DNA of 64,000 nt, from IMG/VR virus record IMGVR_UViG_2880412407_000011; one strand, given 5' to 3'. This document shows positions 18,301 to 21,300 of this stretch, one piece after another (the stretch's first letter is position 1; each line of letters begins with the position of its first letter). Made by a program: the position numbers. The stretch comes from a virus. Taxonomy: Duplodnaviria > Heunggongvirae > Uroviricota > Caudoviricetes.

Positions 18301-21300
18301 GAAAGATGTGGATGATTTTGTCGCAGCGGCGATCGCCTGGGGCACCCTGACTAACAGTGGGGGGCAGCCTGGTAATGCTGTTGTCGTGCATTGACCAACA
18401 ATATTCATGCCGGATTTCTTCCGGATGTTCGAGGGTAAAGTTCGGTATCAGAAGAGGTGAGTATGGCTAATGCCTGGCTCAGATTGTGGCATGACATGCC
18501 AAATGACCCCAAGTGGCGAACGATTGCCAGGGTATCAGGACAGCCAATCGCAACAGTGATGGCAGTGTATATCCATCTTCTGGTGAGTGCGTCACGAAAT
18601 GTCACGACATGTCACGGCGTGTCACTACGTGGTCACATTGATGTCACGACGGAAGATTTAGCAAGTGCGCTTGATGTGACGGAAGACGTAATTGATTCAA
18701 TTTTGCATGCAATGCAGGGGCGGGTTCTGGATGGTGACCTTATTTCCGGATGGGAAAAACGTCAGGTGCTGAAAGAGGACAATGGTAACGTTTCGCAAAC
18801 GGCAAAATCCCCGGCAGAGCGCAAGAGAGCGCAGCGGGAGCGGGAAAAGCTGCGGAAACATAATGCTGATTGTCACGATGAGTCACGACGTGTCACGCAT
18901 CTGTCACGACAAGTCACGACAGATAAAGATACAGATAAAGATACAGATAAAGATACAGATAAAGATACAGATACAGAATTAAACCCCACACATAACGCGC
19001 GCGAGAGTATTCCGACCAGTGAGTCGAATGGTGCGCCGTTGCAGACAGCCGAACCTGAATACCTGGACGGCCTGAGCGAACCGATCGGGAAATTTCCGAT
19101 GACTACTGTCTGGCAGCCGTCGCCGGATTTTCGACAACGGGCAGCAGTGTGGGGTATGGCTCTGCCTGAGCCGGAATTTACACCTGCTGAGCTTGCCGCA
19201 TTCCGGGATTACTGGATGGCGGAGGGGAAGGTTTTCACGCAGGTTCAGTGGGAGCAGAAATTTGCCCGCCACGTGCAGCACGTCAGGGCACAGGTAAAAC
19301 CAGTCAGCAAGGGGGGAAGCCATGCAGCATCAGGTGGCACGGCATCACGGGCAGTTCAGGAAATCCGGGCTGCACGCGAACAGTGGGAACGTGACAACGG
19401 ATTTATCAGCAACGGAAACGGCCTGGAAGCTGTGGGAGCTCATGGGGGAGGTGTATTCGAACCGCTGGACTCAGAAGAACGGGGCCGCACCTTCGAAGCT
19501 CTGGATTGCCCAGATTGGTGCGATGACTGAACAGCAAATCCGTCTGGTGTGCCGTCAGTGCATGGACCGCTGCCGGGCGGGTGAAACGTGGCCCCCGGAC
19601 CTGGCTGAGTTTGTTGCGCTGATTTCGGAGAGTGGGGCAAATCCATTTGGTCTTACGGTGGATGCCGTGATGGAAGAGTACCGGCGCTGGCGCAATGAAT
19701 CCTGGCGATACGACGGGAGTGATAAATACCCGTGGCCACAGCCTGTGCTGTACCACATCTGCCTCGAAATGCGTACCAGAGGGATTGAGCGCCAGATGAC
19801 GCAAGGTGAGTTAAAACGACTTGCGGAACGGCAACTGACGAAATGGGCAAAGCATGTTGGTAACGGGATGAGTGTTCCGCCAGTGCGACGACAACTGGAA
19901 GGGGCGAAACACCCGCAAGGGCCAACGCCAATTGAACGGCTGAAACAGGAATACGAACGCCGGAAGGCAGCTGGTTTTATTTGAATCTGAGAAACGATTT
20001 TGTCGGAGGAAATATTAATGGAAACCGTATTTGACGCACTGAAAGCACTGAAAAAAGCCTCTTCACAGGTAGTGGCATCGCGCCTTGGAATCAGCCGCGA
20101 AGATGCTGTCAACGAACTGTGGAAACTGAAGCGCCGTGGTGAAGCGGATAACAAGGGGTCGATGTGGTGGCTGACTCAGACTGGTGAAAGTGAACCAGTG
20201 TCACCGGTACCGAAAGTGACAGCGCAAATGCTGACTGAGGCGATTGAACATCATGGCCCACAAACGGCGGATGAGCTGGCACTGATGTTCGGGATTACCT
20301 CCCGCCGGGCGAATTCATCACTGGCCATGGCAATCAGCAAAGGGCGTCTGATTCGCGTGAATCAGGGCGGTAAATTTCGGTACTGCATACCGGGCGCTGA
20401 TTTACCGGCAGAGCCGAAAGCCGCATCCATAACGGAAACGGATGGTAAAGCCTTTCCTCAGCCAGCAGGTGTTGCGTTACCAGTCGGGGAAGCGGAAACA
20501 CAGGAAGAAATAAAAACGGAAAGTGTGGCGGTCACAGTGCAGTCACAGCCGTCGTTCACCAGAAAGCATCCGGATGGTCTGATTTTACCATCGCTGCATG
20601 TGGCTAACCGCGAGCTGCGCCGGGCAAAAGGTCAGGTTCAGAAGTGGGAGCGAGTCTGCGCCGCGCTGCGGGAGCTGAACAAGTGCCGGGATATTCTCCG
20701 GGATATTACCGCCACCAGAGAACAGCAGCGGTGAGTGGGTGGAAGACGTGGTGCCGGGCGGAAATCATGATACTCCGGCAGTGTGCGGGAACGATGAAGG
20801 TAAAAAGCGTTGGCGCACTTATCGGACGAACTGAAGCGGCAGTGAGAACGAAGGCACGGGAGCTGGGCATCAGCATGATGTTACGTGGTGATTTTCACCC
20901 GTCGGCAAAATATTCTCAGCGTGATATTGAGCTGGCGCGGCAACTGCATCAGAGAGGCATGCAAAGAAGGGAAATTGCCAGAAAATTAGGCATGCCGCTG
21001 CGCATAGTGAATAACTACGTTTATTTCGACAGGAGGGTGTCTGCGTGAAAATCCTGTATCAGGATTACGGCCCGGTGGGGCAGGTGGTTATCAGCAGTAC
21101 TGTAATGGAGTTTCGGAAGCATAACCGTGTGGTGGATGCTGTGCTGTTAACCTGTCCGGGGATATCGGCGAGTCGTGCAGGTGTGTTTATTATGAAGACG
21201 AAATTATATGGCAGTAAGGCGTGGATAAAGAAGGCGTATCGTGTAGCGTTGCAGGAGGTTAACAGTGAGTGAAATTAAAGAAATGCCGGTAGTTCGTGAC

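What the first reader, a model, noticed from the sequence alone, without database searches (positions are those of the whole stretch)
18598..18970. Two iteron clusters and a 12-bp x4 tandem repeat inside the O-like replication gene
About ten GTCACG(A/G)C-type direct repeats occur in two clusters roughly 270 bp apart within the replication initiator gene. They are followed by gataaagataca repeated four times, encoding DKDT x4. Lambda-type origins have a single iteron cluster inside O, so a double cluster is atypical.
Basis: seen in the sequence. Interest (0 to 1): 0.25.

Follow-up and report, generated by a model that had tools for sequence, protein, structure and literature searches.

The report
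Two-part phage replication origin inside initiator gene
The repeats are real and most likely form the replication origin of a defective E. coli prophage, written into the coding sequence of its own initiator gene; the two-cluster layout that looked odd next to phage lambda is the conserved norm for a large, uncharacterised family of phage initiators unrelated to lambda O.

Summary
Eleven GTCAC(G) words lie on one strand in two arrays (6 + 5 copies, 10–11 bp apart) within 18591–18918. A 12-bp × 4.9 tandem repeat follows at 18919–18977.

The words fall in all three reading frames. Across 22 species-level homologues the codons beneath them are frozen to single synonymous codons, while neighbouring codons drift. 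The constraint is therefore on the DNA, not the peptide.

About 48 of 57 family members, from several phyla, have both arrays at the same gene positions. The repeated word changes by lineage (GTCACG, GTAACG, GCAACG, CGAACGC). In 41 of 44 loci the least stable DNA of the gene directly follows array 2.

The protein is not a lambda O homologue. It has a DnaD-NTD-like winged-helix N-domain, a disordered linker, a DnaT-like ssDNA-binding domain, and a lambda-P-like loader gene downstream.

Best reading: an iteron origin embedded in its initiator gene. Array 2 plus the AT-rich repeat would be the core and array 1 an auxiliary site. This is a new variant of a known kind. Nothing here was tested experimentally.

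The parts
18463..19530 (+). Initiator gene (355 aa; RefSeq WP_001262401.1, 'DnaT-like ssDNA-binding domain-containing protein'). Layout: N-terminal winged-helix domain aa 1-100, basic helix aa 117-134, disordered linker aa 136-207, DnaT-like domain aa 210-280, then a C-terminal tail.
   Evidence: ORF; Pfam DnaT domain; PHROG 'replication initiation protein' families; AF2 model; RefSeq annotation.
18463..18762 (+). Coding region of the N-terminal DnaD-NTD-like winged-helix domain, the presumed iteron-binding module.
18590..18650 (+). Iteron array 1: six direct copies of (T)GTCAC(G), 10-11 bp apart. It encodes the loop/hairpin peptide SRNVTTCHGVSLRGHIDVTT (aa 44-63).
   Evidence: Synonymous codons under the cores are fixed in 22 species-level loci. 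Copy number changes by in-frame 21- or 30-bp steps.
18676..18681 (-). Single reverse-orientation iteron word (GTGACG on the + strand), 33 bp after the last direct copy of array 1.
   Evidence: In all 18 homologues that encode V-T here, the valine codon is GTG, giving (T)GTCAC(G) on the minus strand at the same position.
18871..18920 (+). Iteron array 2: five direct copies of TGTCACGAC-type words, 10-11 bp apart, in the disordered linker (aa 137-153).
   Evidence: The position of the 11-bp spacer differs between close relatives, which changes the peptide but keeps the DNA words. Present in about 53 of 57 family loci.
18919..18977 (+). AT-rich, purine-strand-biased 12-bp tandem repeat (ACAGATAAAGAT x 4.9; DKDT x 4). 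Candidate DNA-unwinding element, and also the recombination junction between the N- and C-modules.
   Evidence: TRF. Least stable 40-mer of the 2.5-kb replication region and 99.8th percentile of the window. The equivalent tract follows array 2 in 41 of 44 loci. Similarity breakpoints fall at window 18947-18980.
19093..19293 (+). Coding region of the DnaT-like ssDNA-binding domain (aa 211-277).
19523..19984 (+). Lambda-P-like helicase-loader gene. Its start overlaps the initiator's stop by 8 nt.
   Evidence: Pfam Phage_lambda_P, E = 1.3e-15; PHROG 109 'P-like helicase loader'; RefSeq 'replication protein P'.
17685..17714 (+). pR-like promoter candidate ahead of the cro-like, cII/YdaT-like, initiator and P genes. 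Tentative: a consensus match only.
   Evidence: 9 of 12 match; the number of hits is not above chance. Gene order.

Best explanation
This is most likely the replication origin of a defective lambdoid prophage at the Rac site, embedded in the gene of its own initiator.

Shown by sequence comparison. Two phased arrays of a short word (TGTCACG) and a single inverted copy are held by selection on the DNA itself. Array 2 is always followed by the least stable, AT-rich stretch of the gene. The layout is conserved across a large family while the word changes with the lineage.

Inferred mechanism. The winged-helix N-domain of the initiator binds one word per helical turn, along one face of the DNA. 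Array 2 together with the GATAAAGATACA repeat is the core origin (iterons plus an unwinding element), positionally equivalent to lambda ori in the interdomain linker. Array 1 with its inverted copy lies about 230 bp upstream, inside the part of the gene that encodes a loop of the DNA-binding domain. It would be an auxiliary site that raises local initiator occupancy, or loops or wraps with array 2, to help melt the AT-rich tract or to regulate firing. The DnaT-like domain would hold the exposed single strand. The C-terminal part would recruit the P-like loader carrying host DnaB.
For: - Clustering and phasing are far beyond chance.
- The words occupy all three reading frames.
- In 22 species-level loci at about 60% protein identity, the codons under the cores are fixed: V47 GTC, T48 ACG, G50 GGT, H51 CAC and V54 GTC are each 22/22. 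The spacer codon R49 uses 4 codons. Conserved residues outside the block average 0.52 major-codon fraction against 0.91 inside (Mann-Whitney p = 5e-5).
- The inverted word is fixed in 18 of 18 loci that encode V-T there.
- Close relatives move the 11-bp spacer, which changes the peptide but not the DNA words.
- About 48 of 57 loci have both arrays at homologous positions, with lineage-specific words of the form NNN-ACG(C).
- Five loci have array 2 only and none has array 1 only, so array 2 looks like the core.
- The least stable 30-mer starts within -5 to +40 nt of the end of array 2 in 41 of 44 loci, even in genes of 60-68% GC.
- Both arrays map to structurally permissive parts of the protein, a low-confidence loop and a disordered linker.
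- The N-domain fold resembles the DnaD N-terminal domain and a plasmid RepA initiator. The central domain is a DnaT ssDNA-binding domain. A P-like loader gene follows.
- Neighbouring genes differ between loci while the N-module and its words stay together.
Against: - No experiment shows binding, unwinding or autonomous replication for any member of this family, and I found no paper on it.
- The prophage is defective, so the origin may no longer fire in this strain.
- The role of array 1 is pure inference. It has no AT-rich tract of its own.
- The distance between arrays varies among lineages (last-to-last 249, 258, 267-270 and 339 bp), so no fixed helical phase supports a specific looping geometry.
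- Words and N-domain are physically linked, so their co-variation is partly trivial.
- The 22 loci in the codon test are phylogenetically related, so its p-value is approximate.
Confidence: 0.7

Rival explanations
1. The arrays are regulatory sites rather than the origin. They would be operator-like, handcuffing or roadblock sites where the initiator (or another phage protein) controls transcription of the replication operon or limits copy number, and the true origin lies elsewhere.
For: Array 1 has no adjacent AT-rich tract and carries a conserved inverted copy, which is more typical of a regulatory site. There are no functional data. From my own knowledge, iteron plasmids use extra iteron arrays for copy control.
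Against: Array 2 is joined to the least stable tract of the gene in 41 of 44 loci, which is the canonical iteron-plus-unwinding-element signature. Its position equals that of lambda ori. There is no other phased cluster in the 64-kb window. This rival could still hold for array 1 alone, and the best explanation allows for that.
Confidence: 0.12
2. The words are binding sites for a different protein, for example the cII/YdaT-like product, the P-like loader or a host factor, and not for the initiator's own N-domain.
For: The binding partner is not shown. The word core ACG(C) is shared across lineages, which could fit a conserved host factor.
Against: The upstream and downstream genes differ between loci: YdaT-like, a DnaA-like small protein or hypotheticals upstream; P-like, DnaB or DnaC-like downstream. 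The hosts span several phyla. The only constant partner of the words is the N-domain that contains them. The 5' triplet of the word changes by lineage.
Confidence: 0.06
3. The 12-bp repeat and the flanking words are mainly recombination linkers (module-boundary microhomology) or slippage-prone low-complexity DNA, with no role in replication.
For: Similarity breakpoints between the N- and C-modules fall exactly in the tandem repeat, at window 18947-18980. The repeat number varies between close relatives: 4.9 copies here and about 1.5-2.5 in Evi, L002 and L003.
Against: This does not explain the frozen synonymous codons of array 1, the 10-11 bp phasing, the lineage-specific words or the strand orientation. 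A linker role is compatible with an unwinding element and does not replace it.
Confidence: 0.07
4. The repeats are a by-product of a repeated or conserved peptide motif, with selection on the protein only.
For: The peptide SRNVT-RGHxDVT is nearly invariant.
Against: The copies lie in all three frames and encode VT, CH/GH and SR. Synonymous positions are fixed only under the words. Related genes keep the words but change the peptide. Iteron-less relatives have unrelated loop sequences such as xxEERGxxx.
Confidence: 0.03

Closest known systems
Phage lambda ori with O and P
   Same: The origin lies inside the initiator gene, in the linker between an N-terminal origin-binding part and a C-terminal part. 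Iterons are followed by an AT-rich tract (PMC7466680; annotation). A P-type helicase loader is encoded immediately downstream, overlapping the initiator gene. The module sits in the same place in the immunity/early-right operon.
   Different: There is no detectable homology to O. The iterons are 10-11 bp direct words, one per helical turn, rather than four to six ~18-bp units in a single block. There is a second array about 230 bp upstream plus an inverted copy. The protein has a DnaT-like ssDNA-binding domain.
Bacillus phage SPP1 oriL and the replisome organizer G38P
   Same: The origin is embedded in the initiator gene (gene 38), with repeated boxes bound by the initiator and an adjacent AT-rich unwinding element (PMC5737612). 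NCBI names and weak PHROG hits call the N-module a 'replisome organizer'.
   Different: There is no Pfam Phage_rep_org_N hit. The helicase and loader set is different. SPP1 has a second G38P site (oriR) far away on the genome, whereas here both arrays lie within about 330 bp of one gene.
RepA_N-type plasmid initiators of Gram-positive bacteria (e.g. staphylococcal multiresistance plasmid RepA, PDB 4pta) and the DnaD N-terminal domain
   Different: There is no sequence-level membership. This is a phage of Proteobacteria. The C-terminal partner domain is DnaT-like and works with a P-like loader. The iteron layout is bipartite.
Satellite phage P4 ori plus crr (own knowledge, not tested here)
   Same: It is a bipartite origin: short octamer iterons in two separate clusters, both bound by the initiator and both needed for replication.
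   Different: The P4 clusters are about 4.5 kb apart and outside the initiator gene. The initiator (alpha) is a primase-helicase unrelated to this protein.
Rac prophage replication module (ydaS-ydaT-ydaU-ydaV; oriJ)
   Same: It occupies the same chromosomal site and has the same operon layout. The C-terminal half of this protein is about 88% identical at DNA level to the ydaU gene of phage Rac-SA53. Rac is known to have an active origin, oriJ (PMC3945230).
   Different: YdaU-type proteins have a DUF1376 N-module in place of this one. I did not examine whether oriJ has comparable arrays.

Membership tests
Lambda O initiator family (Pfam Phage_rep_O) | Sequence homology of the N-terminal origin-binding domain to lambda O | tested here: not met
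   No Pfam hit at E <= 0.01 for the whole protein or at E <= 10 for the N-domain. hhalign of the family profile against lambda O gives probability 0.2%.
Lambda O initiator family (Pfam Phage_rep_O) | A single block of ~18-bp iterons in mid-gene, followed by an AT-rich tract | tested here: not met
   Lambda has four contiguous 18-bp iterons. Here there are 10-11 bp direct words in two arrays. Only the 'array followed by an AT-rich tract in the linker' part is shared.
Lambda O initiator family (Pfam Phage_rep_O) | A partner P-type helicase loader encoded downstream | tested here: met
   Pfam Phage_lambda_P, E = 1.3e-15; PHROG 109.
Iteron-type replication origin (generic) | Multiple same-orientation repeats in helical phase, held by selection on the DNA | tested here: met
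Iteron-type replication origin (generic) | An adjacent low-stability, AT-rich unwinding element | tested here: met
   Nearest-neighbour stability minimum at 18923-18962. Conserved in 41 of 44 loci.
Iteron-type replication origin (generic) | Specific binding of the repeats by the cognate initiator, and autonomous replication of the cloned segment | not testable with these tools
   Needs EMSA or footprinting and a plasmid-rescue assay.
Phage replisome organizer (SPP1 G38P type; Pfam Phage_rep_org_N) | Sequence match to the N-terminal replisome-organizer domain | tested here: inconclusive
   No Pfam hit at E <= 10. There are weak PHROG matches to families labelled 'replisome organizer' or 'DnaD-like helicase loader' (E = 1.7e-9 to 2.9e-5), and NCBI names relatives 'phage replisome organizer'.
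DnaD-NTD / RepA_N-like winged-helix initiators | The fold of the N-terminal domain | tested here: met
Primosomal protein DnaT | The ssDNA-binding domain (PF17948) | tested here: met
Primosomal protein DnaT | A full-length equivalog of host DnaT | tested here: not met
   NCBIfam PRK02854 scores 93.7 bits against a cut-off of 201, and only profile positions 82-156 match.

The most novel reading that the evidence does not exclude
Array 1 is not merely extra binding sites. It is a distinct control element (copy control or handcuffing, fork-direction control, or a loop anchor) written into the coding sequence of the initiator's own DNA-binding domain. It has been held codon by codon across phylum-level divergence, so that the protein loop sequence is dictated by the DNA element. 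That would define a new, widespread class of bipartite phage origin. Because almost all enterobacterial members share the same word, it could also allow cross-activation between co-resident prophages.
Probability: 0.3. Interest if true: 0.55.

Novelty: new variant of a known kind. Interest (0 to 1): 0.4.

Why it matters
Replication modules of STEC and other E. coli prophages that lack lambda O are common, but the Eru papers say nothing is known about how they replicate (PMC8951638). This module, complete or nearly so, is in 657 of 5,426 complete E. coli genomes, and parts of it are in 2,137.

The analysis locates the probable origin. It also gives its parts (two arrays, an inverted word and an unwinding tract) and a family-wide set of natural specificity variants (GTCACG, GTAACG, GCAACG, CGAACGC). 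These make binding, specificity-swap and unwinding experiments directly designable.

It is also a clean example of dual coding, in which a DNA element fixes the sequence of a protein loop. Practically, annotators could use the pattern to mark origins in thousands of prophages.

Tried and rejected
- **Literature.** Searches covered GTCACG iterons, replisome-organizer iterons in prophages, DnaT-like phage initiators, Rac oriJ and the Eru replication-region papers. None describes this origin, and the Eru papers never mention iterons or ori. Subscription-only literature was not searchable, so prior description cannot be excluded.
- **Lambda O homology.** Rejected.
- **Fixed helical phase between the two arrays.** Rejected. 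Last-to-last distances differ by lineage: 249, 258, 267-270 and 339 bp. The constant 229-bp gap seen in five close relatives is more simply explained by an indel-free coding segment.
- **Internal promoter or terminator at the repeats.** Counts are not above shuffled expectation.
- **DnaA boxes.** Only 1-mismatch matches, none adjacent to the arrays.
- **DnaA-trio-like reading of GATAAAGATA.** Considered, but the triplet register does not fit the published motif as I recall it, so I dropped it.
- **Second origin elsewhere in the window.** None; there is no other phased cluster.
- **Specificity-determining residues.** I did not attempt to map residues against word class, because phylogenetic confounding would dominate with about 50 loci.

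Full report
**1. What is there**

The finding lies in a 355-aa gene (window 18463-19530, + strand). The gene sits in a lambdoid early-right operon with this order:
- an S24/HTH repressor on the minus strand (17013-17651);
- a P22-Cro-like gene (17695-17985);
- a cII/YdaT-like gene (17897-18394);
- this gene;
- a lambda-P-like helicase-loader gene (19523-19984), which overlaps this gene's stop by 8 nt.

The window is 100% identical to E. coli STEC strain 2014C-4423.

The word GTCAC occurs 11 times on the + strand. One array has six copies (18591-18648) and the other has five (18872-18918). Spacings are 10/10/10/11/11 and 10/10/11/10 bp, and nine copies are exact GTCACG. No other 340-bp stretch of the window has more than 3-4 copies (Poisson P about 2e-14). 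Nine of the ten phased neighbour pairs in the whole window are here. The hexamer is not enriched window-wide.

Array 2 runs directly into ACAGATAAAGAT x 4.9 (18919-18977, 97% matches), which encodes (DKDT)4.

**2. The constraint is on the DNA**

A 10-11 bp period cannot be a peptide repeat. The copies fall in all three reading frames and encode VT, CH/GH and SR.

I compared 22 homologues from different species at about 60% protein identity. The codons lying under the word cores are fixed to a single synonymous codon:
- V47 GTC, T48 ACG, G50 GGT, H51 CAC and V54 GTC are each 22/22;
- T55 ACG and S44 TCA are each 21/22.

The spacer codon R49 uses four codons. The 41 conserved residues elsewhere average a major-codon fraction of 0.52, against 0.91 inside the block (Mann-Whitney p = 5e-5). 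The loci are related, so the p-value is approximate.

A single reverse-orientation word sits 33 bp after array 1 (window 18676-18681). It is fixed in the same way: all 18 homologues that encode V-T there use GTG-ACN.

In array 2, close relatives place the 11-bp spacer differently. This turns CHDESRRVTHLSRQVTT into CHDESRICHDMSRRVTT while keeping every DNA word. Copy number changes by in-frame steps of two or three units, 21 or 30 bp.

**3. The two-array layout is the family norm, and the word co-varies**

The N-terminal module has 933 detectable relatives. I examined the gene in phages of Escherichia, Aeromonas, Pseudomonas and Ralstonia and in an uncultured phage. I also examined 56 loci from species-representative genomes of Gamma-, Beta- and Alphaproteobacteria, Acidobacteriota and a planctomycete.

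A de novo search for phased words gave this tally over 57 loci:
- about 48 have both arrays, at about nt 129-185 and nt 340-500 of the gene;
- five have array 2 only;
- none has array 1 only;
- four have neither.

The word differs by lineage: GTCACG, GTAACG(C), GCAACG, CGAACGC, GGAACGC and GTGACGC. These align as NNN-ACG(C). For example, Ralstonia phage Firinga is 38% identical in the N-domain and has GCAACG at nt 130-182 and 401-431.

Neighbouring genes differ among these loci. The only constant partner of the words is the N-domain that contains them.

**4. The 12-bp repeat is a conserved AT-rich element**

By nearest-neighbour stability, 18923-18962 is the least stable 40-mer of the 2.5-kb replication region. 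Its free energy is -41.4 kcal/mol, against a mean of -56.3 (sd 4.3). That puts it in the 99.8th percentile of the whole window. It is 78% A+T, and the repeat tract is 69% purine on the + strand.

In 41 of 44 family loci the least stable 30-mer of the gene starts within -5 to +40 nt of the end of array 2. It is almost always a GATAAA, GATACA or GAGAAG repeat, even in genes of 60-68% GC and whatever the iteron word.

The repeat number varies between close relatives. The similarity breakpoints between the independently recombining N- and C-halves of the gene fall inside the repeat, at window 18947-18980. The tract therefore also serves, at least passively, as a module junction.

**5. The protein**

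The AlphaFold model shows:
- a confident helical N-domain (aa 1-100), interrupted by a low-confidence hairpin at aa 46-60, which is exactly the array-1 peptide;
- a basic helix (aa 117-134);
- a disordered linker (aa 136-207) that contains array 2 and the DKDT repeat;
- a confident domain at aa 210-280.

There is no relationship to lambda O: no Pfam hit and hhalign probability 0.2%. Both arrays therefore sit where the protein tolerates a sequence imposed by the DNA. Relatives without iterons have unrelated loop sequences of the form xxEERGxxx.

**6. How it most likely works**

*Shown by comparison.* The phased words are selected as DNA. Their architecture is conserved while the word co-varies. 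An obligatory low-stability tract follows array 2.

*Inferred.* The N-domain binds one word per helical turn along one face of the DNA. Array 2 plus the AT-rich repeat is the core origin. It corresponds in position to lambda ori (gene nt 349-433 in O; PMC7466680) and to SPP1 oriL, where boxes and an unwinding element lie inside gene 38 (PMC5737612).

Array 1 and its inverted word would be auxiliary. They could raise local initiator occupancy, loop or wrap with array 2, or regulate firing. The DnaT-like domain would capture the melted strand, and the C-terminal part would recruit P carrying DnaB. The C-half of the gene co-occurs with a P gene whatever the N-module, as in DUF1376/YdaU-type genes. 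This mirrors the division of labour in lambda O.

I put about 0.8 on the arrays being origin iterons, and about 0.55 on the split into a core array 2 and an auxiliary array 1.

**7. Rivals**

- Peptide-only selection is effectively excluded.
- Binding by another protein is unlikely, because the neighbours and hosts vary.
- A purely regulatory role remains possible for array 1.
- A purely recombinational role for the repeat does not explain the rest of the pattern.
- No promoter, terminator or DnaA-box signal competes.

**8. Context and caveats**

The prophage sits at the Rac site (intR/xisR on one side, uspF-ompN-nifJ on the other). It is defective, with three IS600 copies, a truncated lysozyme gene and no morphogenesis genes. 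The origin may therefore be a relic in this strain.

The module is nevertheless common. It is found with at least 80% coverage in 657 of 5,426 complete E. coli genomes, and in part in 2,137. No record I opened annotates an origin here, and no paper in the searchable library describes it. Older subscription-only literature could not be searched.

**9. Verdict**

The repeats form a real, strongly supported iteron-type origin embedded in its initiator gene.

Interest is 0.4. It is useful and testable, and it is a neat case of dual coding, but it would not greatly surprise a replication specialist.

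Noticed in passing
window ~9300-31630 (L068 10909-33228); IS600 copies at window ~5976-7132, 10879-12035 and 31671-32827: The prophage carrying this origin occupies the Rac site (intR/xisR on one side, uspF-ompN-nifJ on the other). It is defective: three IS600 copies, a truncated lysozyme gene and no head or tail genes of its own. The tail genes upstream (gpJ, lom, tail fibre) belong to a neighbouring element.
   Followed up: partly
window 17013-17651 (-): The sequence has an intact 212-aa ORF with HTH_3 and Peptidase_S24 domains. RefSeq annotates only the C-terminal 112 aa (window 17013-17351) as a 'LexA family protein'. This may be a start-site misannotation of the cI-like repressor.
   Followed up: no
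window 19322-19984 (+): The longest ORF for the P-like gene starts 200 nt inside the initiator gene, whereas RefSeq starts P at 19523. PHROG 15931 (482 positions) matches the initiator and P end to end, as if some database entries are fused O-P gene calls.
   Followed up: no
L021 (Erwinia phyllosphaerae), gene nt ~140-185 and ~410-455: In this relative the GTCACG words overlap at 5-bp spacing (GTCACGTCACGTCACG) in both arrays. That is a half-turn arrangement, unlike the 10-11 bp spacing elsewhere.
   Followed up: no
L056 (Serratia MAG) and L063 (Pantoea sp.), gene nt ~325-375: Here the N-domain is fused to a different C-terminal domain that looks GIY-YIG-like by eye. These genes lack GTCAC-type arrays but carry clustered CTACGTAG words where array 2 would be.
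   Followed up: no
one search hit list (family-wide): A large share of database proteins of this family are 'partial', ending at contig breaks inside the gene. This suggests that draft assemblies often break here, plausibly because several co-resident prophages share the module (up to 6 places per E. coli genome).
   Followed up: no
window 18984-19006 (-): A GC-rich hairpin followed by a T-run on the minus strand (terminator-like) directly abuts the AT-rich repeat. The number of such hits in the region is not above shuffled expectation.
   Followed up: no
L001 (phage Evi), L004 (Aeromonas phage pAEv1818), L007 (Ralstonia phage Firinga), L005 (Pseudomonas phage phi1): The same N-module with its arrays is joined to unrelated C-terminal domains. 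Different helicase or loader genes follow it: none obvious in Evi, a gene annotated 'replicative helicase' in pAEv1818, DnaB in Firinga, and a 610-aa gene annotated 'replication protein P' in phi1. The origin-binding module appears to be freely re-paired with loading machinery.
   Followed up: partly
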